From Narcine bancroftii (lineage: Eukaryota): DNA of 64,000 nt. Of the stretch, positions 1,133-62,121 are shown piece after piece. The notes beneath the pieces are model-generated. The model worked only from the letters and a program-made list of their open reading frames with translations, did no database searches and was not told where the DNA came from. Made by a program: the position numbers and the translations under genes. The first letter of the stretch is position 1; each line of letters begins with the position of its first letter. The DNA lies in assembly GCF_036971445.1 (NCBI RefSeq), contig NC_091470.1:232252001-232316000 (forward strand). Direction: 5' to 3'.

Positions 1133-1423
1133 GCTGGCGTGCTTTGGTTCTCATGGCTACTTTCTCCGATGTATTGAAGTATATCATGTTACCCTACAAC
1201 ACGGAATGCCTCCATCCAGTTTCAATCTCACTGCCTGTTCCAGTGCTGCCTTAAACATTAAACATTAAAACATTACAGCACTGTACAAGCCCTTTGACTC
1301 TCCATGTTGTGCCGAACCATAAAAAAGTGCTAAACCCTCCCTACCCTATAACCCTCTACTTTATTTTCGTCCATGTGCCTATCTGATAGTCTTTAAAAGG
1401 CCCCTAATGTTTCAGCCTCTACC
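1133..1423 (-). repeat. Inverted local duplicate of 2808-3099 (CR1 3' end plus unique flank)
   Basis: Near-identical reverse complement, including non-repeat sequence beyond the CR1 tail. Confidence 0.9.
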
Positions 1424-1746
1424 TGAGTCATTTAACCCCATCATGCAATGTTGAAGTCTATCCCCGGATATGCGGGGATAGTCAATTGTAAATTGAAGTG
1501 CACTGGACACAAGAGGCACTTTGGTTTACAAGAGATCGAGTAAAAGCATTAAAACTATATAATTTTCATTTGAATCTCTGGATGTTAAACATATTCACAT
1601 ATCTTATTTACAGATCTGAATCAAATTACAAAGTAGGTTGCATTACATTATTGGAAAGATCATTATTCCTTTGACAAGTGGTCCAAACATCCAATTCTGT
1701 TTTGGGAACTGACAGATCTATATTGACATGATTTGTCATGTAGAAC

Positions 1747-2310
1747 NNNNNNNNNNNNNNNNNNNNNNNNNNNNNNNNNNNNNNNNNNNNNNNNNNNNNN
1801 NNNNNNNNNNNNNNNNNNNNNNNNNNNNNNNNNNNNNNNNNNNNNNNNNNNNNNNNNNNNNNNNNNNNNNNNNNNNNNNNNNNNNNNNNNNNNNNNNNNN
1901 NNNNNNNNNNNNNNNNNNNNNNNNNNNNNNNNNNNNNNNNNNNNNNNNNNNNNNNNNNNNNNNNNNNNNNNNNNNNNNNNNNNNNNNNNNNNNNNNNNNN
2001 NNNNNNNNNNNNNNNNNNNNNNNNNNNNNNNNNNNNNNNNNNNNNNNNNNNNNNNNNNNNNNNNNNNNNNNNNNNNNNNNNNNNNNNNNNNNNNNNNNNN
2101 NNNNNNNNNNNNNNNNNNNNNNNNNNNNNNNNNNNNNNNNNNNNNNNNNNNNNNNNNNNNNNNNNNNNNNNNNNNNNNNNNNNNNNNNNNNNNNNNNNNN
2201 NNNNNNNNNNNNNNNNNNNNNNNNNNNNNNNNNNNNNNNNNNNNNNNNNNNNNNNNNNNNNNNNNNNNNNNNNNNNNNNNNNNNNNNNNNNNNNNNNNNN
2301 NNNNNNNNNN
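1747..2310. other. Assembly gap (564 N)
   Basis: Run of n. Confidence 0.99.
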
Positions 2311-2397
2311 GTCACCAAGCAAAAAAGAGAAACATTTCAAATGATTGCATGTCACCAATGCAATCAAGCTACAACATCACATTCATTTACAATTCTT

Positions 2398-2980
2398 GTC
2401 TGAAGTCATATTGCAGCTTTATAAGTCTCTGGTGAGGCCACATATGGAATATTATGTCCAGTTCTGGTCGCCTCATTATATGAAGGATGCGGAGGCTATA
2501 GAAAAGGTGCAGAGGAAATTGACCAGGATGTTTCCTGGATTGAAGGGCATGTCTCATGAGGCAAGGTTGGCAAAGCTTGGGCTTTTCTCTTTGGAACGCA
2601 GAAGGATGAGAGGGGACTTGATTGAGGTCTACAAAATTTTGAGGGGTTTGGATAGGTTGAACAGCCAATACCTGATTCCTAGGGTGGGAATAACAACCAC
2701 TAGAGGACATGTGTATAAGATTAAGGGAGGGAAGTATAGGGGAGACGTCAGGGGTTTTTTTTTACACAGAGAGTTGTTGAGGCTTGGAATGCCTTGTCAA
2801 GAGTGGTGGTAGAGGCTGAAACATTAGGGGCCTTTTAAAGACTATCAGATAGGCACATGGACGAAAGGAAAGTAGAGGGTGACAGGGTAGGGAGGGTTTA
2901 GCACTTTTATATGGTTCGGCACAACATGGAGAGTCAAAGAGCTTGCACAGTGCTGTAATGTTTTAATGTTTAATGTTTAA
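2398..2980 (+). mobile_element. CR1 LINE, 5'-truncated (ORF2 C-terminus, 3'UTR, (taatgtt)n tail)
   Basis: LYKSLVRPHMEYYVQFWSP..ERRRMRGDLIEVYKI..TRGH in ORF 2345-2812; short tandem-repeat tail. Confidence 0.92.
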
Positions 2981-3640
2981 GGCAGCACTTGGAACAGGCA
3001 GTGAGATTGAAACTGGATGGAGGCATTCCGTGTTGTAGGGTAACATGATATACTTCAATAGATCAGAGAAAGTAGCCGTGAGAACCAAAGCACGCCAGCG
3101 AATGAAGGGTTTCATTCTCAATGGCTGCATCGCCATCAATTGGTGAGAGAAAGGCAGCGGATTCAGTGCAAAGATCTTCATTCTCTTCTCAAGAAGGATG
3201 TCTGGCTTACACCATTTTCAAAAATTGGATTCAATAGCACCATAGGAATTTAAATCAAATATAGTCTCTACCATACACAAGCACATTTATATTTATGGCA
3301 TGAGTGACACACCATGTTGCTGAGGTTGACCGCAGGAATGTTTCTCCATCTAGTTGTACTGGTGTAATCGGATGACAAGTAAACTTGAACTTGAACTTGA
3401 TGTCAGGCACACACCAAATGCAGAGCAGACAAAAATTAGAGTGGATGATGCGTGCACATTGCTGATTTCAAACCAGATCTCCGTTGTTCTCAGAACTCCT
3501 TCTTCCCTATGGGGCTTGCATTTCCATCAATCTTTTCCCCCTCCAGTTAGATAGACACGGCAGGGTTCTACTTTGTCCTCCAAGAAAGAACTAAGAATGC
3601 TGCAGGTATAATTCAGTCGACTTGAATGATAGGGCTACTG

Positions 3641-3886
3641 TAAATTTAAATTTAAAATTTAAATAAGTTTAAATTTAAATTTAGATATACAACACGGTAA
3701 CAGGCTATTTCCGCCCACGAGTCCATGATGTCTAATTGACCTACACTCCCAGGTGCGTTTCCAACGGTTAGAGGAAACTGGAACCCCTGGGGAAAACCCA
3801 CGCAGTTGGGGAGAATGTATAAACTCCTTACAGACAGCGCGGGATTCGAACTCCAGTCACGATCACTGGTGCTGCAATGGTGTAGC
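3641..3886 (-). mobile_element. tRNA-derived V-SINE (HE1-like)
   Basis: B-box gttcgaatccc, V-domain gagttt.tac.ttctcccc..gcgtgggtttt, CR1-like tail and (taaatt)n end on minus strand. Confidence 0.85.
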
Positions 3887-4117
3887 CGGTGAGGCTGGCA
3901 ACTGGATTTACTGATCCGACTATGTGTTACGTATGAGCCGCAAGGGACAGAACTTGTTGGAAAGTGAGCGATGGAGGATCAGTGGACCGAGCTGTACCTG
4001 CGGTCAGTGGTGCAGCTGGTAAGAAATCCCACTTGATGAGTCCTGATACCACTGAAATGCTGTAATGCTGCATCCAACTTCTCACGCCAGGTTACCTCGG
4101 TTATCTGCTCACATGAA

Positions 4118-4470
4118 GGCAGCATGATGTATTGAAGTATATCATGTTACCCTACAACATGGAATGCCTCCATCCAGTTTCAATCTCACTGCCTGTTCCA
4201 AGTGCTGCCTTAAACATTAAACATTAAAACATTACAGCACTGTACAAGCTTTTTAGCGCAATGCTTTTACAGCGCCAGCAATCGGGAGCGGGATTCAAAT
4301 CCTGCACTGTCGCTGAGGCACTTGTACATTCTCCTGTGTGGGTTTTCCCCGGGGGCTCCAGTCACCATTCAAAACATAATGGGGTGCAGGTTAATTGGGT
4401 ATAAATTTAGCTCGTGGGCCGAAATGATGGCCTGTTACTTTGCTGCATGTCTAAATAAAAATTTAAATTT
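4118..4470 (+). mobile_element. V-SINE interrupted in its head by a 124-bp local duplicate (4126-4249)
   Basis: ggcagcatg head, insert, then ttagcgcaatgc..gattcaaatcc..V-domain..gtctaaat tail. Confidence 0.8.
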
Positions 4471-5759
4471 GAAAGATATTGAGGTTCTCCTAGCTTTTCT
4501 CCTCCTCCTCTATTAGGTCCCCCCCCCCCCCACCACCAAATTTCATTCCTTCCTATATTGTGTTATCCTTCAAAGTCTCACAGGTCAGGCTGACATCCAG
4601 AACAATTGCACAGAAACTGCCTCATCCACCATCGATCCCCTTTAAGAGCTAAATTTAGCAATTGCTCATCATTCACAAAACTGGTGGCTCCTTGAACTGT
4701 CCAATGAGTGTTCAGTTAGCACTTCCTGGATGCTGAAATCAACTCGTGCAGAAGGTAGGATATCCCTGTGTCATTGGTGACTGGTCAAATAAGAGTCAAA
4801 TTGGAGTCCTTGGTCTTATTTTTGGAAGCTGCTCCAAAGTGACTTTAAGAGGAGGAAATTGTATTCCTTTTAACAAGTAAACCATCATTCATTTCCAGGT
4901 TTCTAGGAAATTCCAACAGCTGCAGTGCTGTCTGTAAAATGATGTAATCCTGTCAAGAAGTTTACTGAAGAGAGGAGTCTTGAGCAACACCAAGTTCAGG
5001 AAAAAACTTGGATACACTTGAAGTCAGCAAACAGGCAACCTTCTGTGTGTTGTGCAGCCAGTAAATGAAAAACATACACAAGAGTGCTATAATGCTCCAA
5101 ATCAGTGGGTGCTTTAGTAAATGGTACTCTTTTTTTTCTGTTCCAGGGTATTGGCAATGAAAAGTAACAGCGTTAGACTTCCTGCAATCAGTAGCTCTAC
5201 TTTTCCTTCAGAGTGCTTTACTTGGAGCTAATGTTGAAAAATACTGTCGCCCTGAGTGGCTCCACACTCCCACAACATTAGAGAGTTAGCATCAGATCAT
5301 TCTGGCATGTTAACAGGGAGTCTAAGTCTGGAAAAGCATCTCCCAGGAGCCAAGTACTTCTCAATGCTTCTACCAAAAAAGATTAGTATCAGTGACACTA
5401 GAATTTGATTATTTTAATGTAATTTACCATTCCCGCCCAAACTACTCTCCTCTGAATGAGGCAGAGGTGAAGATGGTTATTTTGCCTTAATGAATCAAAG
5501 GCTTGAAAACGCATTGTGTTTGGCAGATTGAGATTTTGTGCGTTAAATGAGTGAATTACAAGCATAATCGACAATGTAGGTAATTGAGATATTTAGGTTG
5601 AGAAACATTTTGGATGACCGGAGATGGTAACGTTTCATGTGATTATAATCTGCATTACCCTTGAAATAATCGCAAGTATTTGCAAAGATCTGTCAAACAC
5701 CGGGTTAATCTGCATAATCTCAGTGACATTGTGATTGGTTACTGCCTATCCTTCATTGC

Positions 5760-12190: not shown

Positions 12191-12848
12191 TAAGCGTATA
12201 CAGAGCCGTTGTCATACCCACACTCCTGTTCGGCTCCGAATCATGGGTCCTCTACCGGCATCACCTACGGCTCCTAGAACGCTTCCACCAGCGTTGTCTC
12301 CGCTCCATCCTCAACATCCATTGGAGCGCTTTCATCCCTAACGTCGAAGTACTCGAGATGGCAGAGGTCGACAGCATCGAGTCCACGCTGCTGAAGATCC
12401 AGCTGCGCTGGATGGGTCACGTCTCCAGAATGGAGGACCATCGCCTTCCCAAGATCGTGTTATATGGCGAGCTCTCCACTGGCCACCGTGACAGAGGTGC
12501 ACCAAAGAAAAGGTACAAGGACTGCCTAAAGAAATCTCTTGGTGCCTGCCACATTGACCACCGCCAGTGGGCTGATAACGCCTCAAACCGTGCATCTTGG
12601 CGCCTCACAGTTTGGCGGGCAGCAACCTCCTTTGAAGAAGACCGCAGAGCCCACCTCACTGACAAAAGGCAAAGGAGGAAAAACCCAACACCCAACCCCA
12701 ACCAACCAATTTTCCCCTGCAACCGCTGCAACCGTGTCTGCCTGTCCCGCATCGGACTTGTCAGCCACAAACGAGCCTGCAGCTAATGTGGACTTTTTAC
12801 CCCCTCCATAAATCTTCGTTCGCGAAGCCAAGCCAAAGAAGAAAGAAG
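12191..12848 (+). mobile_element. Very young RTE-clade LINE, 5'-truncated, 12-bp TSD
   Basis: Open frame VYRAVVIPTLLFGSESW..QLRWMGHVSRM..RLPKIVLYGEL..CxxC..H..C; (aag)n-type tail; TSD attgcatcccga at 12179-12190 and 12849-12860. Confidence 0.95.
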
Positions 12849-12922
12849 ATTGCATCCCGAAGCAATGTACCAGTTTGGCTGAATCCTCATGCCCTTTTAC
12901 AGCAGAAGCTTTCTCTTTAGAG

Positions 12923-13398
12923 CAGTGGTTCTCAACCTTTTTCTTTCCACTCACATACCACTTGAAGTATTCCCTATGCCATAAGTGCTCTGTGATTAGT
13001 AAGGGATTGATTAAGGTGGGATGTGGGTGGGAAAAAAGAGTTTGAAAACCACTGTTTTAATCTGACCTCATTGACTCATTATGTGCGCGGTTTCAGAACT
13101 CCAAAGGAAACGGGCCAAAGACAATTTTTCTCAAGCAAAATATCTCAGTAACTATTGGGTCTAGAGTAGTGATTCTCAACCTTCCCTTCCCATTCACATC
13201 CCATTTTAAACAATCCCTTACTAATCACAGAGCACTGATGGCATAGGGATTACTTAAGGTGGTGTGTGAGTGGGAAGGGAAGGTTGAGAATCACTGCTCT
13301 AGACCCAATTGTTACTGGAATATTTTGCTTAAGAAACATTATCAGTGAGTGGTCCATTTCCTTTGGAGTTTTGAAACACAAAGGTTGAAAACCCATTG
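12923..13398. mobile_element. Composite hAT-Charlie-type MITE, rearranged copy
   Basis: TIR cagtggttctcaacc; mini-unit 12923-13054, spacer 13055-13166, mini-unit 13167-13296, inverted spacer copy 13297-13378, TIR. Confidence 0.88.
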
Positions 13399-18013: not shown

Positions 18014-21000
18014 TTCTTTTCTTTTTCAATCTTTTTATTATTATTATAATTTATAAACACATACAGTTCAAAGAGATATAAAAAATACATAGTAAGTAAT
18101 GAATTAATACAGAGATATTAAACAATAATATTACAGAATAAAAATATATCATAAAAAAAAATTTAGATCAGTTTAGGGTGTGAACTATCTCTAAAAAAAA
18201 GATATAATTAATAACAATATATGAAAAAAGAGAAAAAAAAAACCCCAAAAAAGAAGAAAAAACAAATCTGAATTTAAAAAAACTTAAAAAAAACCTACAG
18301 ATATAGCTAAACCACGCCGATCACTCCGATCTCATCTTACAGCCCAATTATCATACATAATCATAGAAAGAAAACAGAGCCAGATCAACTCACCACAAAT
18401 GAAAATATTGAATAAATGGTCGCCAGGTTAACTCAAACTTAGAAGGGGATTCATAGACAGAGTTTCTACTTTTCTCTAAATTTAAACATAGTATAGTTTG
18501 GGTAAACCATTGGAAAACAGTGGGAGGATTAACCTCTTTCCAATTCAATAGTATAGATCTTCTAGCCATTAGTGTAAGAAAAGCAATCATACGATCCGCA
18601 GGAAGAGATAAATAAGTCAAATCTATCATAGGTAATCCAAAAATTGCGGTAATGGGATGTGGTTGTAAATCAATATTCAAAACAGTAGATATAATGGAAA
18701 AAATTTCCTTCCAATAATTCTGTAAAGAGGGACAGGACCAAAACATATGTGTAAGGGAAGCTATTTCCAATTGACATTTATCACATATAGGATCGATATG
18801 AGAATAAAAGCGATGGAGTTTATCTTTAGACATATGAGCTCTATGAACAACTTTAAACTGTATTAGTGAATGTTTTGCACATAGAGAAGAAGAGTTTACC
18901 AGTCGCAGAATTTTATTCCAATTTTCATTAGAAATATGAAGGTTGAGTTCTCTTTCCCAATCATTTTTAAATTTTTCAAAAGTCCCAGAATTTATTTTTG
19001 TAATTATATTATATAATTTAGATATCACACCTTTTGGAGGGAATTTTGAATATAGTATATCCTCTAAAACAGTCGTAGTCTCCCGATTGGGAAAAGAGGG
19101 TAAAGTCGAAACTAAGAAACTCCTAATCTGCAAATATCGAAAGAAATGAGATCGAGGTAAATCATATTTCATGGATAATTGTTCAAATGACATGAAAGAG
19201 TTATCCAAGAATAAATCCGAAAAGCATGTTATACCTTTAACTTTCCAGAGTAAATAAGCTTGATCAATTAGAGAGGGATGAAAAAGGAAATTTAGTACAA
19301 TAGGAGTTTCCAAGATAAAATGACTTAGGCCAAAAAATCTCCGGAATTGAAACCATATACGTAGTGTATGTTTAGCCATTGGATTATCAATTTGTTTATA
19401 TAATTTAGTAAGAGTAAAAGGGAGAGCAGCTCCCAAAATAGAGCTAATTGAAAAATTTTGTATCAGTTTAATTTCTAAATTTACCCAATGGGGATTTAGA
19501 GATAATTCTGAATAATTCAACCAATACCTTAAGTAACTAATATTAATTGCCCAGTAATAAATTCTAAAGTTGGGTAATGCCAACCCTCCCTCTAGTTTAG
19601 ATTTCTGTAAATATTTTTTCCCCAATCTAGGATTCTTGTTTTGCCAGATATACGAGGACAATTTAGAATCGACCTTATCAAAAAAAGATTTAGGAACAAA
19701 AATAGGTATAGCTTGGAATATATATAAAAATTTAGGTAAGATCATCATCTTAATAGCATTAATTCGGCCTATCATGGATAGGGATAATGGTGACCAATTG
19801 GTAAGTAAACTGCCGATCAGGTCCAATAGAGGGAAAAAATTAGTCCTAAACAAATCTTTATGTTTTTTAGTAATCTTAATCCCTAAATATATAAAATGGT
19901 CTCTAGCTATTTTAAAAGGTAAACTATCATAAATAGGAACCCATCCATTAAAAGGGAATAATTAACTTTTATTTAAATTCAGTTTATATCCCGAAAAATT
20001 ACTAAATTGGGCTAATAAAGATAAAACTGCAGGAATAGAATTTTCAGAATTGGAAATATATAACAATAAATCATCTGCATATAGTGATACTTTATGAATA
20101 TCCCTGCAACGTATAATACCAGTAATATTGGGTGCTTCTCTGATAGCAATTGCCAAAGGTTCTAAAGCTAAGTTAAATAATAAAGGGCTAAGGGGGCATC
20201 CTTGCCTGGTGCCCCGAAATAATCTCGAAAATATGGCGATCTTTGGGCATTAGTAAAAACCGAGGCAACTGGGGAATTATAAAGAAGTTTAATCCAAGAT
20301 ATAAATATCGGACTAAAATTAAATTTTTCAAGAACTGTAAATAAATAAGGCCATTCTACTCTATCGATGTGAAGGAGTGTAAATAATATTCATCAATCTT
20401 CTAATATTAAAAGAGGAATAACGATTTTTAATAAATCCAGTCTGGTCTTCAGAGATAATATATGGTAATATCTTCTCTAGCCTTGTCGCTAGAATTTTAG
20501 AGAAGATCTTAGAATCAACATTCAACAAAGAAATAGGTCTATAAGAAGAACATTCGGTCGGGTCTTTATTTTTTTTCAAGATTAGAGAAATCGTAGCTCT
20601 GTAAAATGATTGTGGTAGTTTACCCAATGTGATAGATTCATCAAACATCTTAATCAGCCAGGGAGAGAGAGTAGAAGAAAAAGCTTTATAAAATTCCACA
20701 GAATATCCATCGGGACCTGGTGCTTTCCCCGAGTTCAGTGAGAAAATAGTATTATTGATCTCCGAATCTGTAATAGGTTTACTTAATTCTAAGTTATCTT
20801 GAGGTAATACTTTTGGGAATTTCAAATGTTCTAAAAAATTAAACATATTACTAAGGTCTTGAGAGGATTCTGTACTATATAAGGATGTATAAAAATTTTG
20901 GAAAGATTGATTTATCTCTTCCTGGTTAACAGTCAGTTCTCCATTCTGTTTGCGAATCTCCACAATTTGGCGTCTAGCTGAAATATTCTTCAGATGATTA

Positions 21001-21341
21001 GCCAACAGTTTACCCGATTTCTCACTATGCACATAAAAATAAGATTTAGATCTAATTAGCTGGTTTTCAATCGAAGATGTAAGTAACAAATTATATTCCA
21101 TCTGCAGTTCAATTCTTTGTTTGTAAAGTTCTTCAGTAGGATCAGTCACATATTTCTTATCAATGTCTTTAATCTTCTCAACCAATAGATGAATCTTGTT
21201 TTTGATGCATTTCTTCAAAGCTACTGAGTAAGAAATAATTTGACCACGAATATAAGCCTTGAATGTATCCCACAATATTCCATAAGAAATTTCCGTAGTG
21301 TAATTTGTTGAAAAGAAAAAGTTAATTTGTTCTTTCATAAA
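18014..21341 (-). mobile_element. L1-clade LINE, 5'-truncated (3.3 kb), disrupted ORF2, 10-bp TSD
   Basis: ORFs 20361-21338 (KAPGPDG, SYRPISLLNVD), 19962-20156 (LYADD), 18390-19853 (CDKC..H..C knuckle); aataaa plus A-rich tail; TSD gcgatttcct at 18004-18013 and 21342-21351. Confidence 0.95.
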
Positions 21342-21539
21342 GCGATTTCCTATAGTTGCATGTTTTAGTCAATAAATTCTGGGAAACAAGACAGACTACT
21401 TGCCTGATTCCTCACCCCAGCTAGGAATGCAGAATCCACCTGTACCAGTGTTATTGTGGGCAGTGCTAATGGTATTTGAAAAATCAGTTTCTGTTTCCTG
21501 TTTTATGCTGGGACAGTGTGCTAATTTAAATTGCACAGG

Positions 21540-22652
21540 ATCACTATCTCAGAGGACCTTTCCTAGACTAAACATACTCATGTCATCATAAAGAAAGCAT
21601 GTCAACCCCCTCTATTTCTTCCTTGCAGAGGTTCAGTATGATATCAGAAACCTTGACAAACTTCTACAGGTGTGTAGTGGAAAGTGTGTTGACGGATTGC
21701 ATCACGTGGTATGGGGGCACCAATTCTTCTGAGCAGAAAGTCCTGCAAAAGGTAGTGGAAACAGCCCAGGACAAAACACTCCACCATTAGGAGAATCTAC
21801 ATCAGTGATTCTCAACCTTTTTCTTCATATACCATTTTAAATACTCCCTATGCCATAAGTACTCTGTGATTAGTAAGGGATTGCTTAAGGTGGGATGTGG
21901 GTGGGAAGGGAAGGTTGAGAACCACTGCTCTAGACCCAAATGTTACTGAAATATTTTGCTTGAATAAAATTGTCATTGGCCCATTTCCTTTGGAGTTCTG
22001 AAACCATGCACATAACAAGTCAATGAGGTATGATTAAAACAGTGGGTTTCAAACTTTTTCTTCCCACATATATACTACCTTAAGCAACCCCTTACTAATC
22101 ACAGAGCACCTATGGCATAGGGATTGCTTAAAGTGGTGTGAGTGGAAAGAAAAACATAGAAACATAGAAAATAGGTGTAGGAGTAGGCCATTTGGCCCTT
22201 CAAGCCTACACCATCATTCATTTTGATGAAAGGTTGAGAACCACTGGTTTATAGGGGACACTGCCATTGGAAAGCAGCAGCAGTGATCACCAAGGATCCA
22301 CACCACCCAGTACATGCTCTGTTTTCACTGCTGCCATCAGGAAAGAGGTGTAGGTGCCACAAGACTCACACCACCAGATTCAGGAACAGCTGCTCCCCCT
22401 CCACCATCAGACTCCTCAACAACAAACTTGTTAAAATTGCATATTATTTATTACAGTATATTTGTTTCTGTATTGCAGTCAGTTCAATTACATCTATTTC
22501 CTTGTTTACATTCTCTCTTTTAAATACATATCCTTATTTTCTTGAGTTACCAATAAGTAGCAGCCTGGCCTTCTGGAAAAAAATGAATCTCAGGGTTGTA
22601 TGTGATGTCATGTACTGTATGTACTCTGACAATAAATCTGAACCTTTGAATT
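21540..22652 (+). mobile_element. Rex1/Babar LINE 3' part, interrupted by a MITE
   Basis: LTNFYRCVVESVLT (21599-21790) continues as KDPHHPVHALFSLLPSGKR (22283-). Confidence 0.85.
21803..22246. mobile_element. Composite hAT MITE carrying a short CR1 3'-tail insertion (about 22150-22225)
   Basis: TIRs cagtgattctcaacc / ggttgagaaccactg; same two-unit plus spacer layout; (aaacatag)2 CR1 tail inside. Confidence 0.88.
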
Positions 22653-31260: not shown

Positions 31261-31561
31261 TCTCAGGTTTGTCCCCCAATTTACATTGAGATAGTTGACC
31301 CCGGGTGGAACAGAGTGTCGGGTTGTTTGAAGTATCCCGAGCAGTCATAGTACAAGCAGCCAGAGTTCACGTTCTTCATTTCTCTCCACTGACCCCCTGC
31401 AGATGACAGTAAGGATTGGGGATCCCTTCAGCTTCCTGCCAGCTGCGATCAGCTACTTTGGCTCAAGTCCCACTGATGCCAACTGGAGACAAGCTGTAAG
31501 TTGTAAGTATAGACGAGTGGGAGAATCGAGGTTTGCCATTCAGAAGGGGCGTTAAACTCAA

Positions 31562-32110: not shown

Positions 32111-32209
32111 TTTTTAATGTTATTGCATGAACAAGGTTCTCCCTGCCCTCTCAGGTGGAAAGATTTGTAAAAGATGCAATTTTATCCGAGAAAAATCCCA
32201 GGGATAGAG

Positions 32210-34029: not shown

Positions 34030-34790
34030 CATCTTTTACTCTCCCCACCTTTCTGCCTTGAACAGGGTTCCCTTCTGTCGGTGACATCCTGGTTTACTCT
34101 TCCTTCCCCAGCCATCATTTCACTCCTTTAACGACAACCCGCTGTACCCCCCAGTTGGGGCAATCCTTGCTCCGACATCTCTCCTCCCAACCTCCCATCA
34201 AGGGCCATAAGCAGACCTTCCAAGTGAGGCAGAGCTTCGCATCCAACCCAGGCCAGCTGCGATCAGCTATCTTGGCTCCAATCCCATGGAGGCTGACTGG
34301 AGACAAGCCACAAGTCGTAAGTCTAGTCGAGATGGGAGAAATTTGGGCTGCTATTCAAAAAGGAAGTTAAAACAACGTCCTCCGTGCCCTCTCAGGTGGC
34401 ATCCTAGTATTCCTTTGTGTCTTATTTATCATCCAAGTAGTATAGGCACAACCTGACTGCATTCTATGCACTCAATGTTGCCTCCTCAGCATTGGTGAGA
34501 CCAAAAACATAGGGTAACTGCTTCGCCAGCCAAGCGCCACTGTCTGTCCTTAGATGCAAGCTGGAACTCCTGATTGCCAGCCATTTTAATTTCAAGTAAC
34601 CTCCATCTCCATCTGGTTCCATTTCCATCTGTCCTTTACCTGTTTCTGTCCTCATTTTCCTCTCAAAGCATTTACCCGTCTCCCCATCTTCATGTATCCA
34701 GAAGCCTCCCTTTCCCAGCCCTTTCCTCACCCTCTATTATGCTTGAGATTTTCCTTTCCCACTCAAGTCTCAAAAAAAAAAGGTTCTGAC
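34030..34790 (+). mobile_element. Penelope-like element relic (GIY-YIG), interrupted at 34250-34440
   Basis: IKGHKQTFQVRQSF, then CILCTQCCLLSIGET and LLIASHFN segments. Confidence 0.7.
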
Positions 34791-38049: not shown

Positions 38050-38632
38050 ATATAAACAAATATTACTGTTAAATAAATAGTAGAGTTGTAGAGGGCTTTT
38101 ACCATTGGAATTCACGCCAAGCACACAGAGCAATTTATAGCACCCAATTTAACCTTCCAACCATGTGTCTTCGGGAAGTGGAGGGGAAACCAGAACACCT
38201 AAGGGAGAGCATGTAAACTCCACACAGGCAGCACCAGAGCTCAGGCTTGTTAATGGAGCTTCGATGCAGAAACTTTGCCAGAAGGACCACTAAACAAGGT
38301 GCACCTAAAATACTGATGCAAAACCTGGTCACCAGCCAAAATATCATGGATTAAAAGTAGTGGGCTTTAAACAATTAAGGGCTAAAATAGAAGCTGTGCA
38401 ATTAATACTTATCTTTTCATGAGTACAGTTTTCTTGTATGGCCAATAAGCAGAATTGTTACTTCGTCCACAGGAAAATCTTAGGGTTTTATGTGATGTCA
38501 TGTAGGTACTTTGACAATAAATCTGAACTTACAACTTTTTTGAACTTTAAATTCTTAACTTTAAATTCTTAGCTGCATGAACTGATGCATTAGTGCTGTG
38601 TAGTGCACTGGGAAGGGCATCAGACCCTAAAC

Positions 38633-39007
38633 TGGTGGTTCTCAACTTTTTTCTTCCCACTCACATACCACTTTAAGTAATCCCTATGCCATTGGTGCTC
38701 TGTGATTAGTAAGGGATTACTTAAGGTGGTATGTGAGTCAGAAGGGAAGGTTGAGAATCACTGCTCAAGACCCAATTGTTACTGAAATATTGTGCTGGAG
38801 ATAAATTGTCATTGGCCCATTCCCTTTGGAGTTATGAAACCGTGCACATAACAAGTCAATGAGGTACAATTAAAGCAATGGGTTTCAAACTTTTTCTTTC
38901 CACCCACATACCACCTTAACCAATCCCTTACTAATCACAGAGCACCGATGGCATAGGGAATACTTAAAGTGGAATGTGAGTGAAAAGAGAAAGGTTGAGA
39001 ACCACTG
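38633..39007. mobile_element. Composite hAT MITE
   Basis: Two inverted mini-units plus spacer; TSD ccctaaac/ccttaaag (6/8). Confidence 0.9.
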
Positions 39008-39271
39008 CCTTAAAGTGTTGAATAACTCAAAGACCACAAAATGATCCCAAATGCATGGCCTAAATGATTCCACAGTTAAAGGTCTAGGGGGAAATGGTGT
39101 TTTAGAGTTGGCACAAAGAAGATGGGTTGAAGGGTTTCCTGCATTGTTCTACAACGATTCTGCCACCATGCTGACTTAAGGCATTTTTATCCAGGAGAAG
39201 GTAATATTCACCATGTTTCCATTGGTCCCTGTTGCAAAACTGGCGAGTCCTCGCACAGAAAGTTCACACAC

Positions 39272-39876
39272 TTTAACTTTAAGATTTTTAAAGATTTAGA
39301 GATACAGCATGGAACAGGATATACCAGCCCATGAGACAGTGCTGCCCAGTTTCACCAATCTGACCAATTAGCCTACAATGCCCGTACATCTTTGGAACCT
39401 GGGAGGAAACCAGAGCACCCAGAGGAAACCCACACAGGTCACAGGAACACGGAAACTCCACGCAGGAACAAGGAAATTCCATGCAGGAACGAGGAAACTC
39501 CATGCAGGAACGTGAAAACTCCACGCAGGAACGAGGAAACTCCACGCAGGAACACGGAAACTCCACGCAGGAACGGAGAAACTCCATGCAGGAACGAGGA
39601 AACTCCATGCAGGAACGTGAAAACTCCACGCAGGAACGAGGAAACTCCACGCAGGAACACGGAAACTCCACGCAGGAACGGAGAAACTCCATGCAGGAAC
39701 GAGGAAACTCCATGCAGGAACGTGAAAACTCCACGCAGGAACACGGAAACTCCACGCAGGAACACGGAAACTCCACGCAGGAACGAGGAAACTCCTGACG
39801 GACAGCAGCAGATTAGAACCCAGGTGACTGATGCTGCAATAGTGTTGCATTAACCGCTATGTTAACCGTGCTGCCC
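39272..39876 (-). mobile_element. V-SINE containing an expanded minisatellite
   Basis: Head at 39800-39876, V-domain and tail at 39272-39441. Confidence 0.85.
39442..39798. repeat. 21-bp minisatellite, 17 units, with a 105-bp higher-order repeat
   Basis: Unit caggaacNNNNaaactccaYg; five variants recur in fixed order. Confidence 0.95.
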
Positions 39877-40306
39877 GACATATTTCTCAAATTCCTTGAG
39901 CTATCATGCAAAGGTGATGACTTTCCACAGAGGAGCTGAGTTTAATGTTGACCGGCACTGTAAAGTTGTTGTGCTAACTGCACTTCTGTCAGCTTGTTAC
40001 CAGCTTCTGTCTCCTGAACCTCTTCCATTGCTGGAGATTAGAATTCCTTCCTCCGCCCAGCTGGAGGTTTTGATGGCAGCCTTGTGGCAGCTGATGCCGG
40101 TGTTCTTCCTGATGACAGACCTCTGCTGGAAGTGAGCCCTTGAGTTGGTGGAGCTCAGGAGTCAATTAGCAGAGGTGTGAGTTTGGCTTCAGGCAATAGG
40201 ATTTGGGTGAGCTTGCATTTGGGAGGTAACAAAAGACATGGAGGAGGGTCCTGGTATGAGATTAACGGAAGTCCAACTTTGAGGGTATCAACTGAATCGG
40301 AGTACT

Positions 40307-40855
40307 ACAGGGTTGTGTTCTTAGCCTCCTTACTCTACTCACTTTACACCTACGGCTGTGTAGCTCGGTTGAACAATAACATCATCTACAAATTTGTTGA
40401 AGATACCATGGTAGTGGGTTGAGCCAGCATACAGGATAGAGAATGAGAACTTGGCTGAATGGTGCACCAACAACAACCGTACACTCAATGTCATCAAAAC
40501 TAAGCAGCCGATTGTTGACTTTAGGAATGTCCATTGATTACTGGGGGATCAGAGGTGGAGAGGGTGAGCAAATTTAAGATCTTGGGAGTCATTATCTTGG
40601 AGGATCTTTCCTGGATCCAACACACCAATGGCATCGTGAAGAAAGCTCGTCAGTATCCCTACTTCCTCAGGAGTTTGCAGAGGTTTGGTATGACACCAGA
40701 AACCCTGGCAAATTTCTACAGATGTATGCTGGAAAGTGTCCTGACCGGCTGCTTCACAGTGTGCTATGGGGCACCAATACCCCTGAGCCCTCCAAAAGTA
40801 TGCAGCCCAGGACATCACAGGTAAAACCCACCCCACCATCGAGAAAATCTACAGG
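40307..40855 (+). repeat. Inverted local duplicate of the Rex1 segment 41504-42069
   Basis: ORFs 40534-40824(+) and 41536-41826(-) differ at 2 of 96 residues; shared private deletions. Confidence 0.92.
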
Positions 40856-41076: not shown

Positions 41077-42616
41077 GATTTCATATTTCAGATTTATTGT
41101 CAGAGTACGTACATGATATCACATGCAAACCTAAGATTCTTTTTCTTGTGGACGCAACAGAATTACCACTAACTAATAGCACAAAAAAAACTGTACACAG
41201 CATAAATCATAGGCAAATAAAGAACTGTAAACAGATAATGAATGTAAAAAAAAACTGACTGTGCAATACAGAAAGAATGACAAAGAAAATCAATAGAGTG
41301 CACAAGTAAGAGTCCTTAAACGAGTCCCTGATTGAGTTTGTTGTTGAGGAGTCTGATGGTGGAGGGGTAGCAGTTGTTCCTGAACCTGGTGGTGTGAGTC
41401 TTGAGGCACTTGAATCTCTTTCCTGATGGCAGCAGCGAGAGCAGGCGGGTGCTGGGTGGTGTGAGTCCTTGATGATTGCTGCTGCTCTCTGGTGAAAGCG
41501 TTCCCTGCAGATGTTCTCCATGGTGGGGGTGGGTTTTACCTGTGATGTCCTGGGCTGCATACTTTTGGAGGGCTCAGGGGTATTGGTGCCCCATAGCACA
41601 CTGTGAAGCAGCCGGTCAGGACACTTTCCAGCATACATCTGTAGAAATTTGCCAGGGTTTCTGGTGTCATACCAAACCTCTGCAAACTCCTGAGGAAGTA
41701 GGGATACTGATGAGCTTTCTTCACGATGCCATTGGTGTGTTGGATCCAGGAAAGATCCTCCAAGATAATGACTCCCAAGATCTTAAATTTGCTCACCCTC
41801 TCCACCTCTGATCCCCCAATAATCAATGGACATTCCTAAAGTCAACAATCAGCTGCTTAGTTTTGATGACATTGAGTATACGGTTGTTGTTGGTGCACCA
41901 TTCAGCCAAGTTCTCATTCTCCATCCTGTAGGCTGACTCATCCCTTTCCTTTATACAACCCACTACCATGGTATCATCAACAAATTTGTAGATGGTGCTA
42001 TTGTTCAACTGAGCTACATAGCCGTAGGTGTAAAGTGAGTAGAGTAGGGGGCTAAGAACACAACCCTGTGGTGCTCTGGTACTGATGGAGATCGTAGAGG
42101 AGAAGTTCTTACCAATCCTCACTGATTGTGATCTGGAGGGGAGGGAATCCATGATCCAATTACATAGTGGGCTGCTGAGACCCAGGTTTTGGAGTTTGCT
42201 GATCAATTTTGAGAGGATGACGGTGTTAAATGCCGAACTGTAGTCGATAAAGAGCACCTTGGTGTTTGCATCTTTGCTGTCCAGGTGTTCTAGGGCTTTA
42301 CGTAGATCCACTGAGATGGCATCTGCCATGGACATGTTGCTGCGATAGGTGAACTGGAATGTATCCATGTATGCCTCATCACCAGCCTTTCAAACACTTC
42401 ATCACTGTTGATGTAAGTGCTACTGGTCGATAATCGTTAAGACAGGTTACTACACTCTTCTTGGGCACCGGTATGATTGGTGCTTGTTCGAAACAGGTGG
42501 AAACCATGCCCTGCTGGAGTGAGATACTGAAGATATCCATGAATATATTGGTAAGTTGGTCAGCACAGACTCTTAATACTCAGCTGGGCACTCTATCTGG
42601 GCTGGATGTTTTCCTC
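41077..42616 (-). mobile_element. Rex1/Babar LINE (RT domain to 3' tail), decayed
   Basis: FQFTYRSN..LFIDYSSAFNT..APQGCVLSPLLYSLYT..KFVDDT (ORF 41823-42368). Confidence 0.92.
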
Positions 42617-48612: not shown

Positions 48613-48764
48613 ACACAAAATAACTGCCTTAGATACCTACACTGGGGATGTAAAATGATGCGTAACAGGCATAACGGCAAGTTTCAATGGATCACAATGA
48701 GTTTCTTTATATCTACCTCAATACTCAAGATATCAATGATTTGATTTGATGAATCTATGATAAG

Positions 48765-49975
48765 CTGCCAACTTTATCCACTTTGCAGCTAATTTTCATC
48801 CTGACCTCAAATTCACTTGGCCCATCTCCAGCCACACTCTCCTCTTTCTCTATCTCTCTGTCTCCATCTCAGGAGACAAAGTCTCAACAGATCTTTTCTA
48901 CAAATCCCACCAACCCCCGCAGCTACCTCGACCACACCTCTCACATCCTGACCCCTGTAAGGATTCTAAGCCTTTCTCTCAATTCCACCATCTCTGTCGC
49001 ACCTGCACTCAGGATGAGGTCTTCCATTCTGGATCATCCAAGATATCCTCCTTCCTCAAAAAAATGTGGCTTCCCACCCCCACTGCCATCAACTCAGCCT
49101 GTATCTCCTCTATTTCTTTTCACATCTGCCCTGGCCCCTCTGCTCTGAGGTGCCACAAGGACCGGATTCCCTTTGTCCTCACCTACCACCCAACCAACCC
49201 CCACTTCCAACATATTATTCTCTGCAATTTCCATTACCTACAGCCAGGCACCTCTTCCCCTCTCCACCTTCCACAGGACTGCTCCCTCCATGTCACTCAT
49301 CCCTTCCCACTAATCGCCCCCTCGTTCACTCACCACCATTCGACTGCACAAACAGTCCTTGCAAGTGAAGCAACACCTGTGAATCTGCAGTGGTCATCTA
49401 CTGCATCCAACGCTCCTACTGTGGCCTTCTCTGCATCAGAGAGACCGGATGCAGACTGGGAGATGATTTCATTGCGGAACTTTGTTCAATTCGCTGCAAT
49501 AGTAAGGACCTCCCAGTGGCCAACCATTTCAATTCTGCACCCCACTCTGAAGGTGACCTGTATGTCCATTGCCAAGCATGGCCACCTGCAGATTGGAAGA
49601 ACAACACCTAATATTCTGTCTGTGCACTCTCTAGCCAGACAGCACAAACATCTACTTTGCATTAGGCCCCCTCCCCTGTCTCTTTCTCTTTCCCTATCCC
49701 TCTCTCCTTTCCTCCAGCTCCACACCCCCTTACCCTCTCCATTCAGAGAGCCAAACCCTCACCCTATCACTTCTATTTTTCTCTTCTTCTCTCCAATCCA
49801 TATGCACCATTGACCTCCTGCTGTGCTCCAATCCCTGACCCTCTCCTTACCTTTCTAGTCAAGCCTCTGCCTGTTTTTGGTCCTACCTTGATGAAGAGCA
49901 CGTGACATAGGTTATACTTCTGTGCTACAATGAACATTGCACAACCAGCCGAATTTCTCCAGAACCTTTATGTAT
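48765..49975 (+). mobile_element. Penelope-like element (RT C-terminus and GIY-YIG endonuclease), decayed
   Basis: PTNPRSYLDHTS; DRIPFVLTYHPTN; VIYCIQRSYCGLLCIRETGCRLGD..DLPVANHFNS (ORF 49390-49611). Confidence 0.9.
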
Positions 49976-51654: not shown

Positions 51655-51907
51655 CTTTCTTTGGCTTGGCTTCGCGGACGAAGATTTATGGAGGGTATGT
51701 CCACGTCTGCTGCAGGCTCGTTGGTGACTGACAAGTCCGATGCGGGACAGGCAGGCACGGTTGCAGCGGTTGCAAGGGAAAATTGGTTGGTTGGGGTTGG
51801 CTGTTGGGTTTTTCTTCCTTTGTCTTTTGTCAGTGAGGTGGGCTCTGCGGTCTTCTTCAAAGGAGGTTGCTGCCCGCCGAACTGTGAGGCGCCAAGATGC
51901 ACGGTTG
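51655..51907 (-). mobile_element. Young RTE LINE 3' end, 10-bp TSD
   Basis: Near-identical to 12586-12845; TSD gagaaactat at 51645-51654 and 51908-51917. Confidence 0.95.
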
Positions 51908-51962
51908 GAGAAACTATAATAGTAAGCTAATTGAATTAAATTAAAAGAGACTATATATAATA

Positions 51963-52200: not shown

Positions 52201-52271
52201 ATACATGATAGAAAATGAATATTCACAGTCATCCTGGTGCAAAAAAGAATGTAAATTGCAGTAGTGTTGAC

Positions 52272-52615
52272 CAGTGGTTTTCAAACTGCCCCCTTTAAAG
52301 CACATTGGTGCTCTGTGATTAGTAAGGGATTGATTAAGTTGGGATGTGGATGGGAAGGGAAGGTTGAGAATCACTGCTCTAGACCCAATTGTTACTGAAA
52401 TAGTTTGCTTGAGAAAAATTGTCATTGGCCCATTTCCTTTGGAGTTTATGAACCCATGCACAGATCAAGTAAATGAGGAACGATTAAAACAATGGTTTTA
52501 AACTTTTTTTCCCCACCCACATACCACCTTAAGCAATCCCTTACTAATCAAAGAGCACTGATGGCATAGCAATTGCTTCAGGTGGAAGTTTAGGGAGGCA
52601 GTTTGAAAACCACTG
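52272..52615. mobile_element. Composite hAT MITE
   Basis: TIRs cagtggttttcaaactg; TSD gtgttgac/gtgtagac (7/8). Confidence 0.9.
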
Positions 52616-52624
52616 GTGTAGACA

Positions 52625-57650: not shown

Positions 57651-57907
57651 TTTCTATATGCTTCTGAATGTTTTGTCATCAATGGCGCAGAATGAACGTA
57701 AGGACCGGTTATTCCTAAATATTGATAAATATGGCTTGGTCAGAATCTCTTCTGTTCAGTGGGCTATGGTGCTTAGTTGATCAAACCAGGAAGATCAGTT
57801 TTCCAGCACTGTCGAAATTGAACTGATAGTAGGAGTGATTTTAAAGAAAGAGATGAATTCCATCCACCAAGGCCATGCTGACCAGACATTTAACTAATCG
57901 TACATTC

Positions 57908-58143
57908 AGGGCGGCACAGTTAGTGCAACGCTGTTACAGCACCACTGACCGGGGATTCTCGAGCACCATCGATAGGGATTTGAATCCCGTGCTGCCTGTA
58001 AGGGGTGTCCGCGTGGGTCTCCACCGAGCATTCAGGTTTCTTCCCACCCTTCAAAACGTACTGGTAGGTTGTGGGTATAATTTGGCACCTCAGGCTTGTG
58101 GGCCAAAAGGGCCTGCTGTTGTGCTGTATGTTTAAATTTAAAA
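57908..58143 (+). mobile_element. V-SINE (HE1-like)
   Basis: gggcggcacagttag head, V-domain, tail. Confidence 0.85.
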
Positions 58144-58269
58144 CTGAATTGTACATTTTTTTATTCTTCCCATATTCTCATCAACCACCTCCCATCCCCA
58201 ATTCTACCACTCATCTATACACTGTGAGCAATTTACATTGGTGATTTAACCCAGCTACCCGCACATCAT

Positions 58270-58720
58270 ATCAAGTCAAGTTTATTGTCATCTGATTGTA
58301 CAAGCACAACCTGATGAAACTGCATTCTCCGGTCCTCAGTGTAAAACATGCAGACACACAACCAGACAGAACACACATACAGGCAACAATACATATGCAG
58401 AACAAGTATTTTATCTGTTCAAATAAATATTGTTTTGTACATATGAGAGTCTCAGAGGGTTAGTGTGAGCAGTTCCTTTGGTCGTTCAGCGTTCTCAGTG
58501 CCCGTGGGAAGAAGCTGTTCCTCAGCCTGTGGTGCTGGCTCTGATACTCCTGTATCTACTCTCTAATGGGAGCAGCTGAAAGATGCTGTGTGTAGGGTGA
58601 TAGGGGTCCTCAATGATCCCAGTAGATCACTTCGATGGATGGGGGTGGGGGAAGTGAGACTCTGGGTGCTCTCTGCTACAGTCTCACTCTTATGGTCCTG
58701 TGGATTGACCTCCAATCTCC
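58270..58720 (-). mobile_element. Rex1/Babar 3' end nested in an older V-SINE (58165-58860)
   Basis: (gactt)n tail and 3'UTR shared with 59838-60153. Confidence 0.8.
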
Positions 58721-59837
58721 GCAGGTCTTTGGGATGTGGGCGTAAACCAGAGCATTCCTGGTGTTAACCCATGCGGTCAATGGGAAAATGTAAAAATAAA
58801 ACTCCACGCAGAGAGCTCCGAAGGTCAGGATTAAACCAGGATCTCTGCTGCTGTGAAGCAAAGATTTTACTGGGTTAGCTGTTTCATTGGCTTCAGAAAC
58901 TAGATTTTGGAGAGTAACTTCAGTGTGAATGTCAGCTCCTAGATTCTACCCATGTTGGGGAAAGTGTGCCTGCAAATGGTTATCAGCTGTAGAGAAGCCT
59001 GCAATAATCGCTTTTCCCTTGTTAATAGGTACTCAACTGGTGCGCCTACTTCAGGTTCACGTAAAAAGAATTGCTACTTCCAAAACTGCATTGAATTTTA
59101 AAATAAAAAAACAAACCTATGAATGTTCACAAATGCAACATGTTGATTGGTCCTGCAGGGATTGTTGAACCATACTTCAGTAAAAAGTCGGTGGAGAATT
59201 GGTCTCATGGGTGTATGTGGTCGGCGTAGGCCCATGGGCCAGTGGGATCTGTGACCGTGCTGTATCTCTAAATTAAAAATAAAAGGAAAATCAGCCTCGT
59301 GAACAAAATGACGAGCTTGTTAATCTCAAGGCACCATTCATTCATTATTTCTGATAATGTTTTACAACATCTAACCACAATCTTCTGTTTGCCCAGTGTG
59401 TGATTTACATAGCTAAGTGCTCCTCTCAAATTATGTTTAAGGTATTTTGCTGGGAATGATAAATGGTTTGCTTTATTACAAATTGAGCTCTTGTTTACGT
59501 AAAGTAAATGGTTCACTCATTGTGCAATATTTAACTATGGCAAGGACCTCAGCTCAATGGCTTTGTTATTCACCTCCACTATTTCCTTGCCTTTCAAAAG
59601 CCGCGGAAACGTTTATTTGCCGTGTTCTTTTGCGGACACAACAAAGAGCACTAACCCAGTGGCGTCCCATAAAGGCAAGACGGTGGCTCGGATCAATGGA
59701 AGCTGGATAAACATCAGAACAAGTCCTTGTATGAATAAACACTGATTGGAGTCATACTGTAACAATAAAAAGACTGTTTAGATTACACTTCGCTAGCTTT
59801 GAAAGTGCAGAAAATGTGGCTCTCAAGTTGTGCCCAG

Positions 59838-60153
59838 AGTGGGCATGCAAAATCATCGATGACCCCTTCCACCCCACACACAGCATCTTTCAGGAGGATC
59901 AGAGCCAGCACCATCATGTTGAGTAACAGCTTCTTCCCACAAACAGTGAGAACGCTGAATGACTCACACTAACTGAACAAGACACTCCTATTCGCAAAGC
60001 AATATTTATTTATTTGTATATAGGAATACTTGTCCTGCCTATGTATTGTGTGTGCTACGTTTGGTTGTGTGTCTGCCTGCTTTGCACTGAGGACTGGAGA
60101 ACGCTGTTTCGTCGGGTTGTACCTGTGCTATCGGATGAAAATAAACTTGACTT
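59838..60153 (+). mobile_element. Rex1/Babar 3' end
   Basis: KIIDDPFHP..NSFFPQTVR; aataaacttgactt tail. Confidence 0.8.
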
Positions 60154-60564
60154 AACTTCACTGGAAGTGAATACGTTCCCCAAGCATAGCCTGTTGCACA
60201 GGCAGTAGCTGACCCACCCCATTCTCCAATATGGTGAGCACAAAATCCAGACATACTTCATACCTTACTGGGAAAGATGAAGATCAAAGTGTATCTATCC
60301 AAGTCTGAGAGGGTCCCTCATTGCACAGTGACCTCAGCTGGATCTTCCACTGATTCATGTGCAAATGGTGCTCAAATCACTGACTGTATTTTTCTCTCTC
60401 CACAGCCTGACCAGCTGCAGATAAGAATGAAGTGCATAAGCAGGACTTTTAGCTCCTTGTGTCTTCTCCCTGCGTCAGTACGATGTGGCTGATCTCTTAG
60501 CACATCACCACCTTTCTACACGGAGACCACCCCCCCCTTGATTCCCTTCATATCTAAAAATTCT

Positions 60565-61330
60565 CAGAATCAGAATTTATTGTCATGAACATTTCATTGT
60601 TCTGTGGCAGCATATCACAGTGAAAATATTGCTAAAAAATTACTTTTCAAAATAAGTAAATAGTGAAGAAAAATAGGAGAAACTTAGGTGGTGTCTGTGG
60701 TTCAATGTCCATTCAGGAATCTGATGGCAGCAGGGAAGAAGCTATCTTTGTGCCGCTGAGTGATTGTCTTTAGGCTCCTGTACCTTTTTCCCCGATGGTA
60801 GCAGAGTGTATGGCCTGGGTGGTGGGAGGTCCTTGAGGAGAGAGGCTGCTTTCTTAAGACACCACCTCTTGTCGATGTACTTGATGGAATAAAGTCTGAT
60901 GTCCATTGATATTAGAGGCCACAGCTGAGCTGGTGCTTGGCTGTCGATCCCTTACTCTCTGCCTCTCCTATGGTTGCCAGACCACAGGTGCTGACAGCTT
61001 CAGGTGCTGAGGTTAGCAGTGAGGAGAAACGTCTGGACTTGGAAGGAAGCGAGTCATTAACAACTCTGTGTAGCCTTTTTCTGTTCATTTGAACCTCCAT
61101 ACTAGACAGGGATGCGACCAGACAGAATGCTGACCTGTAGAAATTTTTGAGAGAATTCGGTGACGTACCAAATCTCTTCAAACTCCTCACAAAGTACAAT
61201 CACTGACAAGGCTTCTTTGTGATTGCATCAACTATGGAGGGCACAGGACAGATCCACAGACAAGAATTTGAATATCTTGACCTTGTCCACTGCTTACTCC
61301 TGGATGAGGACTGGTCTACTGATTTCTGAA
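60565..61330 (-). mobile_element. Rex1/Babar 3' part carrying a 142-bp foreign insert
   Basis: YFVRSLKRFGTSPNSLKNFYR; insert at 60917-61058. Confidence 0.85.
60917..61058 (-). repeat. Inverted local duplicate of 61371-61512
   Basis: 142 bp, 7 mismatches by manual alignment, no indels. Confidence 0.95.
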
Positions 61331-62121
61331 TGCACCAAGTGACAGAACCCCCATACTCTGACTATGTTCCAATGACTCGCTTCCTTCCAAGTCCAGACAT
61401 TTCTCCTCACCGCTAACCTGAGCACCTGAAGCTGTCAGCACCTGTGGTCCGGCAACCATAGGAGAAGCAGAGGCTAAGGGATCGACAGCCAAGCACCAGC
61501 TCAGCTGTGGCCAAGCCAAGGGAGTGCTGATGTCAGGCCCACCAGGGTGGTGGTAGGAAGAAAGATGGCCGAATAAGGCTTAGCCTCTGTGGAATCGAGA
61601 CCGGATGTCCAGGGGGTTGGGGGAAGACCAGGCCGCTGGATACAGAGGTTCAAGCTCAGCATCTGGGGACAGCGGTGTTGGGTCCATCAGGGGATGGCCC
61701 ATCAGGGAACCAAAGCATTGACCATTCTTGATCACTCATTGGTTCTGAAGGGACTTGCATCGCAAATAGGAATCAGCTATTTAAGGCTCTGAGTTTGTGT
61801 ATTTCTCTGCTATATATGGAAACCAACAATAAACACCAACTAAGAGATACTCAGAACTAGAATGAACATTGATTTTGTTGAAACAAGCATCATTTGTTGG
61901 GGATTTGGTGATGTCAATATCTTTGGAATACTTTCCTTTGCGGAGGAGTCTAGAATGAGGAGTTTTAGTTTCAAAATGCGGCCAAAATAAGGAGAGATGC
62001 AAAACTAAGATCTCTCACTTTCTTGATATGGGAGTTGGTGGGGGGAGGGGTCGGAAATCAAGGCAAAGGGAAAAAGCACTGGAAAATGGCCTTCTCATAT
62101 AAGATCCACCATGATCTAAAG

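What the first reader, a model, noticed from the sequence alone, without database searches (positions are those of the whole stretch)
1133..61512. Recurrent short-range templated copy-paste events across the window
Seen: at least five segments of 120-550 bp (1133-1423, 4126-4249, 34252-34400, 40307-40855, 60917-61058) are copies of sequence lying 0.3-3 kb away. Four are inverted relative to the apparent source. None has a TSD or a new retro-tail. Where the target is a known repeat (4126, 60917), about 10-15 bp of it is missing. Established: such junctions typify synthesis-dependent end joining (Pol theta) or replication template switching. Inference: roughly one event per 13 kb suggests an unusually active germline local-templated repair process that seeds inverted repeats in this lineage.
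Basis: partly seen in the sequence, partly recalled or inferred. Interest (0 to 1): 0.7.

Follow-up and report, generated by a model that had tools for sequence, protein, structure and literature searches.

The report
Local repair-copy scars in fish genome
Five short stretches here are copies of DNA lying 0.3-3 kb away, likely left by faulty repair of DNA breaks; this kind of scar is known from humans, and although this genome holds more of them than published vertebrate counts, slow ageing of old scars could explain that without unusually active repair.

Summary
All five copies are real: 120-556 bp, 0.3-2.7 kb from their source, and the local partner is the best match found in the 3.3-Gb genome. 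Four are inverted and 3-5% diverged; one is direct and 22% diverged. They fit repair-mediated duplications (Pace et al. 2009) and the proximal inverted duplications of human variant maps. Corrections: E5 lost 2-9 bp of target, not 10-15; E1 has an 8-bp target-duplication-like flank; the copies are far longer than typical Pol theta insertions (3-30 bp). In 1.66 Mb sampled elsewhere in this genome I count 37 clusters (1 per 45 kb; 24 at 85% identity or more, 13 inverted, 10 direct, 1 mixed). So the window's 1 per 13 kb is a high tail (P 0.01-0.06) and inversion is not the rule. A Pace-like strict count gives 3.8 per Mb of repeat DNA (95% CI 0.8-11) against 0.62 in human, and inverted copies run about 8-9 times the human figure per substitution. 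With a shark-like mutation rate the per-generation rate is no higher than human, so 'unusually active repair' is not needed. The scan noted the same class elsewhere in this genome and in another genome.

The parts
1133..1423 (-). E1 copy: inverted 291-bp copy of 2808-3099, placed at the end of an old repeat (about 990-1125)
   Evidence: crosses a repeat/unique boundary; remote hits cover only the repeat part, at 93% or less
1125..1132 (+). Left copy of a possible 8-bp target duplication (CTGAGTGA; right copy CTGAGTCA at 1423-1430)
   Evidence: 1% of 3000 random sites give such a match
2808..3099 (+). Source of E1 and likely of E2: 3' end of a high-copy repeat (LINE-like tail; family name recalled, not tested) plus about 120 bp of unique flank
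   Evidence: the repeat continues through the left boundary in 27 remote hits
4118..4126 (+). First 9 bases of a SINE-like element, cut off from its body by E2
   Evidence: 8 of 9 match a remote copy's head; about 13 bp of head missing
4126..4254 (-). E2 copy: inverted copy of 2936-3064 inside the SINE head, with 2-bp TT microhomology on the right
   Evidence: a short-read contig 3829-4239 spans the left junction
4253..4470 (+). Body of the SINE-like element interrupted by E2
31438..31556 (+). E3 partner, first part (continues at 32130-32158 after a later insertion)
34252..34399 (+). E3 likely copy: old direct copy that cuts off a repeat fragment on its left
   Evidence: only one other match in the genome search; which side is the copy is inferred
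40300..40855 (+). E4 copy: tail-less internal LINE piece, inverted relative to 41504-42076, with non-repeat flanks
   Evidence: 29 private substitutions and 11 deleted columns shared with the partner, against 5 and 4 own changes; best remote copy 82%
41504..42076 (-). E4 source inside a decayed LINE (41309-42476) with reverse-transcriptase remains
   Evidence: RVT_1, E 3.7e-22, at 41826-42389 minus
60917..61058 (-). E5 copy: inverted copy of unique 61371-61512 inside an old repeat; GGCC microhomology left, TT right, 2-9 bp lost
   Evidence: 23 of 46 repeat hits span the excised junction; contigs
61371..61512 (+). E5 source, unique sequence
   Evidence: a 38-base contig shared by both copies has depth 24 against about 12.7 beside it

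Best explanation
These are five local duplications, likely made in the germline when a broken DNA end copied 120-560 bases from a template within 3 kb and then rejoined its partner end, the known class of repair-mediated duplications. Shown: the copies, their local sources, small target losses (E2 about 13 bp, E5 2-9 bp), 2-4 bp microhomologies and no retro-tail. Inferred: a double-strand break or stalled fork; invasion at microhomology; synthesis, release and end joining (SDSA-like or template switch). The process acts across the genome at roughly 15-22 scars per Mb, and this window is a rich tail. The excess over published vertebrate densities is most likely because point mutations erase scars slowly in cartilaginous fish and because the published pipeline undercounts, not because repair is more active per generation.
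For: Local partner is the best hit for all five. E1 crosses a repeat/unique boundary; E4 shares 29 private substitutions. E2 and E5 interrupt repeats with short losses and microhomology, inside Pace's ranges (deletion 1-15, microhomology 2-9, length up to 619 bp, source within 5 kb, some with target duplications). Short-read contigs bridge E2 left and E5 right and show double depth where the E5 copies agree. Outside the window: 37 clusters in 1.658 Mb, identities from 68 to 100%; 7 of 8 candidates checked genome-wide are truly local. Inverted copies are about 1.05e-4 per substitution against about 1.2e-5 in humans; times 7e-10 per generation (epaulette shark) this gives 7e-14 per base per generation against 1.5e-13 in humans.
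Against: No empty allele or outgroup was seen, so target loss is inferred from repeat relatives and only for E2 and E5. The pathway cannot be read from sequence. The clock argument borrows a mutation rate from a shark, not this species, and uses recalled human values (diversity 0.001, mutation rate 1.2e-8). The strict count (3 in 0.787 Mb, P 0.014 against 0.62 per Mb) leans towards a real excess per Mb.
Confidence: 0.7

Rival explanations
1. Same scars, but this lineage truly makes them more often per generation, through a more copy-prone germline repair route or more breaks from active transposons.
For: 14.5 per Mb at 85% identity or more (CI 9.3-21.5) and strict 3.8 per Mb (CI 0.8-11.1) against 0.62 human, 0.19 zebrafish, 0.08 chicken; about 8-9 times human per substitution; three sampled pairs are 100% identical, so the process is recent.
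Against: Pipelines differ: Pace calls its count minimal, excludes repeat donors and needs both repeat flanks. A shark-like clock removes the per-generation excess. The strict count rests on 3 events, one not checked genome-wide; with 2 events P is 0.087.
Confidence: 0.18
2. Some pairs are not insertions but independent repeat copies homogenised by local gene conversion, or remains of larger tandem duplications or terminal repeats.
For: E4 and part of E1 are repeat sequence; E3 is old and direct; 1 of 8 outside candidates was a young dispersed repeat; several outside clusters are collinear direct pieces.
Against: E1, E2, E3 and E5 include unique sequence; E4's copy has sharp ends with no repeat remains in its flanks (0 hits); E2 and E5 split other repeats.
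Confidence: 0.08
3. Canonical Pol theta end joining made the copies in one or several short rounds of templated synthesis.
For: Microhomologies of 2-4 bp and small deletions; Pol theta makes both direct and inverted templated insertions.
Against: Pol theta insertions are 3-30 bp, with first rounds rarely over 10 bp, from sequence flanking the break; these are single tracts of 120-560 bp from 0.3-2.7 kb away. Pol theta may still seal the last junction.
Confidence: 0.03
4. Assembly artefacts.
For: Only 2 of 10 junctions are cleanly bridged by contigs (a third by 30 bases); no single contig spans a whole pair.
Against: Copies differ by 3-22%; contigs match the window with 0-1 differences; double depth at the shared E5 segment.
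Confidence: 0.01

Closest known systems
Repair-mediated duplications (Pace, Sen, Batzer, Feschotte 2009, PMC2671141; read abstract, parts 2-4 of 8, sections 16, 17, 21 and passages; supplements not seen)
   Same: 50-619 bp copies with source within 5 kb, inside transposon relics, with 1-15 bp deletions, 2-9 bp microhomology, sometimes target duplication or filler, no poly-A; found in all vertebrates surveyed.
   Different: No cartilaginous fish among the 10 species in its table; density there 0.08-0.65 per Mb of repeat DNA against 3.8 (strict) or 14-22 (all) here; orientation not tabulated in the text I searched; repeat donors such as E4 were excluded by design.
Proximal inverted duplications in human variant maps (PMC4617611 and PMC12350158; passages read)
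   Same: Under 1 kb, inserted within 5 kb of the other copy, not retrotransposed; median 284 bp; mostly 1-15 bp microhomology.
   Different: Those are polymorphic (277-311 in 1,019 people); these are 3-22% diverged and probably fixed. Counts for interspersed direct duplications are in a supplement I did not open.
Pol theta templated insertions (PMC7165422; passages read)
   Same: Local template, direct or inverted, microhomology at junctions.
   Different: 3-30 bp long, from DNA flanking the break.
Local n-jumps in cancer genomes (PMC7025897; passages read)
   Same: Copy-and-paste from local templates with mixed orientation; E1 plus E2 from one source resembles this.
   Different: Somatic and far larger; one site suggests E1 and E2 were sequential events.

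Membership tests
Repair-mediated duplication (Pace 2009) | Copy of at least 50 bp, source 50 bp to 5 kb away on the same chromosome | tested here: met
   5 of 5; 120-556 bp, spacers 312-2695 bp
Repair-mediated duplication (Pace 2009) | Source is the single other copy and best match in the genome | tested here: met
   Best match in 5 of 5. Strict single-copy rule holds for E3 and E5; E1 and E2 form a three-copy set; E4 is a repeat piece with private shared changes
Repair-mediated duplication (Pace 2009) | Copy interrupts a transposon whose halves join within 30 bp | tested here: met
   E5 and E2 (9-bp head only); not met or not applicable for E1, E3, E4, whose targets are one-sided or unique
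Repair-mediated duplication (Pace 2009) | Junction signs: deletion, filler or microhomology; no poly-A/T tail | tested here: met
   E2 about 13 bp lost plus TT; E5 2-9 bp lost plus GGCC and TT; E1 possible 8-bp target duplication; no tails. E3 and E4 targets cannot be reconstructed
Repair-mediated duplication (Pace 2009) | Empty site in an outgroup or second allele | tested here: inconclusive
   Run X5 (organism B) covered too little; no skipping joint at the copies among rows shown
Pol theta templated insertion | 3-30 bp insert templated next to the break | tested here: not met
   120-556 bp from 0.3-2.7 kb
Pol theta templated insertion | Dependence on POLQ | not testable with these tools
   needs genetics
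Dispersed repeat copies | Equally close full-length matches elsewhere | tested here: not met
   searches score only the best 40 candidates and skip very common words
Lineage-specific elevated rate | Higher rate per generation than other vertebrates under one pipeline | tested here: inconclusive
   higher per Mb and per substitution, not per generation with a borrowed clock; no other vertebrate genome available here

The most novel reading that the evidence does not exclude
This cartilaginous-fish lineage carries some 40,000-65,000 local copy-paste scars, 5-20 times the density reported for any vertebrate, because its germline repairs breaks by local templated copying far more often relative to point mutation, with copies from under 1 kb mostly inverted (8 of 10); it would be the best natural data set for this repair route and a steady source of intronic hairpins.
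Probability: 0.2. Interest if true: 0.65.

Novelty: new member of a known kind. Interest (0 to 1): 0.35.

Why it matters
The scars themselves are ordinary and lie in repeat-rich DNA where no host-gene domain was found in long frames. The number is what could matter. If scars per substitution are about ten times the human value, then in slow-clock vertebrates small structural changes weigh far more against point mutations than assumed, and one genome would offer tens of thousands of events for studying template distance, orientation and junctions. It also makes a testable question: is the break-repair duplication rate constant per generation while the substitution clock slows?

Tried and rejected
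One of 16 sampled 100-kb blocks (C9 at 150 Mb) was wholly tandem satellite and was dropped. Two outside clusters were dropped before counting: C15 84365, a young dispersed repeat, and C8 15652, with a 96.7% remote match. A general inversion bias was rejected (13:10, P 0.68; under 1 kb 8:2, P 0.11; the mixed C22 cluster left out). Excising E1, E3 and E4 gave no spanning repeat relatives, so their target losses are unknown. Run X5 (organism B) gave no usable outgroup. The first attempt to align E3 globally failed and was redone locally. A Pfam scan of 47 of the 51 long frames found only reverse-transcriptase domains. Paper searches for this class in sharks or rays listed nothing relevant among 15 rows each; these were weak word searches and do not show absence from print. 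A masked stretch lies between the E1 copy and its source and could not be examined.
Full report
Observation. A self-alignment of the window and junction alignments confirm all five pairs. E1 (1133-1423) is an inverted copy of 2808-3099, 3.4% diverged. E2 (4126-4254) is an inverted copy of 2936-3064, 3.1%, and also lies 0.8% from the E1 copy in direct orientation. E3 (34252-34399) is a direct copy of 31438-31556 plus 32130-32158, 22% diverged, its source split by a later insertion. E4 (40300-40855) is an inverted copy of 41504-42076, 3.2%. E5 (60917-61058) is an inverted copy of 61371-61512, 4.9%. The window is G000:C5:232252001-232316000 in a 3.33-Gb assembly. A Pfam scan of 47 of 51 long frames found only reverse-transcriptase domains.

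Are they dispersed repeats? No. In own-genome searches, which score the best 40 candidates, the local partner ranked first each time. For E1, remote hits cover only the repeat part, at 93% or less, so the copy crosses a repeat/unique boundary. The E3 and E5 segments had no other match. E4 is a LINE piece (RVT_1) whose best remote copy is 82%. Against 11 remote copies the E4 pair shares 29 private substitutions and 11 deleted columns, with only 5 and 4 changes of their own, and the copy's flanks have no repeat hits.

Junctions. E2 sits in a SINE-like head: 9 bases of head, the insert, then the body, with about 13 bp lost and TT shared at the right. E1 is flanked by CTGAGTGA and CTGAGTCA, which 1% of random sites match, so it may have a target duplication; two outside events show similar repeats by eye. 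One site near E2's right end carries a derived base shared with the middle source and not with the E1 copy, weak support that E2 came later and from the middle copy. No copy ends in a new tail. Targets of E1, E3 and E4 cannot be rebuilt. SINE and LINE labels other than E4's are from structure and recall.

Read support. Four runs of one sample and one of another organism hold the region. A contig 3829-4239 bridges E2's left junction. Contig 60925-61188 bridges E5's right junction, 60849-60946 reaches 30 bases past the left one, and a 38-base contig common to both copies has depth 24 against about 12.7. The sample may be the assembled one, so this argues against assembly error only.

Rate. I fetched 100 kb on each side of the window and 16 blocks of 100 kb at round coordinates; one block was all satellite and was dropped. 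In 1.72 Mb after masking, pairs of at least 80 bp and 90% identity number 21, 17 and 14 at 50-1000, 1000-3000 and 3000-5000 bp, against 2.3, 4.7 and 4.6 expected from the between-block rate; at 20-100 kb it is 104 against 87.6 (window included). Of 269 local matches, 61 passed a unique-or-private filter and formed 43 clusters, 4 in the window and 39 outside. I checked 8 outside candidates genome-wide, chosen by me as simple and young, not at random: 7 were local and 1 was a young dispersed repeat. After dropping 2, 37 clusters remain in 1.658 Mb (22.3 per Mb, 1 per 45 kb), 24 of them at 85% or more (14.5 per Mb). The window would be expected to hold 1.4; five events has P 0.014 and four clusters P 0.054, before allowing that the window was picked for this. 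Among 23 simple young clusters 13 are inverted and 10 direct; under 1 kb it is 8 to 2 (P 0.11). The unchecked clusters may include more false ones, mostly old direct pieces.

Comparison with what is known. Pace et al. 2009 (PMC2671141) describe this class: 824 human copies within 5 kb, mean 162 bp, maximum 619, with 1-15 bp deletions, 2-9 bp microhomology and occasional target duplications; density 0.62 per Mb of repeat DNA in human, 0.19 zebrafish, 0.08 chicken, called a minimal estimate. Human maps report inverted duplications under 1 kb within 5 kb (PMC4617611) and 277-311 such events in 1,019 people, median 284 bp (PMC12350158). Pol theta insertions are 3-30 bp (PMC7165422), so that label fits poorly as the source of the long tract.

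Is the lineage unusual? An imitation of the Pace test, using the sample's own repeats as library, finds 3 events outside the window in 0.787 Mb of repeat-covered DNA: 3.8 per Mb, 95% CI 0.8-11.1, P 0.014 against 0.62. Two of the three were checked genome-wide; with two events P is 0.087. Inverted copies come to about 1.05e-4 per substitution, against about 1.2e-5 for humans by a rough Watterson scaling, some 8-9 fold (human diversity and mutation rate recalled). But the epaulette shark mutates at 7e-10 per base per generation (PMC10587355). With that borrowed clock the rate is 7e-14 per base per generation here against 1.5e-13 in humans. So scars can be dense because they fade slowly, with no need for more active repair. 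This arithmetic is good to an order of magnitude only.

Verdict. Earlier notes of this scan reached the same class elsewhere in this genome and in another genome; they are leads, not support. What is new here is an unselected density estimate and the clock argument.

Noticed in passing
window 12915-13377, 21796-22154, 38627-39015, 52303-52622, 62115-62494: Five copies of a 320-460 bp repeat that matches itself in both orientations (79-88% between copies), a palindromic MITE- or Penelope-like element.
   Followed up: no
window 39442-39795: 21-bp tandem array with a 105-bp higher-order unit, open in several frames.
   Followed up: no
window 18393-21368 minus: Long open frames (523 and 335 aa) with zf-RVT and RVT_1 matches, a fairly intact LINE.
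   Followed up: partly
window 48764-49810 plus: 349-aa open frame with no Pfam match.
   Followed up: no
window 12582-12840 and 51657-51910: 259-bp inverted pair at 92% identity, 39 kb apart; a young repeat or a longer-range copy.
   Followed up: no
L066 (C1:100055927-100058690), L084-L085 (C8:100037569-100041919), L210 (C29:20090992-20092034): Three 100%-identical local copies (89, 67, 143 bp); candidates for still-polymorphic events. The first has a 9-bp target repeat plus 6-bp filler.
   Followed up: partly
L159-L160 (C22:50082000-50098000): Complex cluster of nine or more direct and inverted local matches, origin unresolved.
   Followed up: no
L091-L100 (C9:150000001-150100000): 100 kb entirely tandem repeat, 56% GC, likely a satellite block.
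   Followed up: no
L076 (C1:300053124-300057684): 750-bp inverted copy at 96%, longer than any proximal copy in Pace et al., interrupting a repeat.
   Followed up: yes
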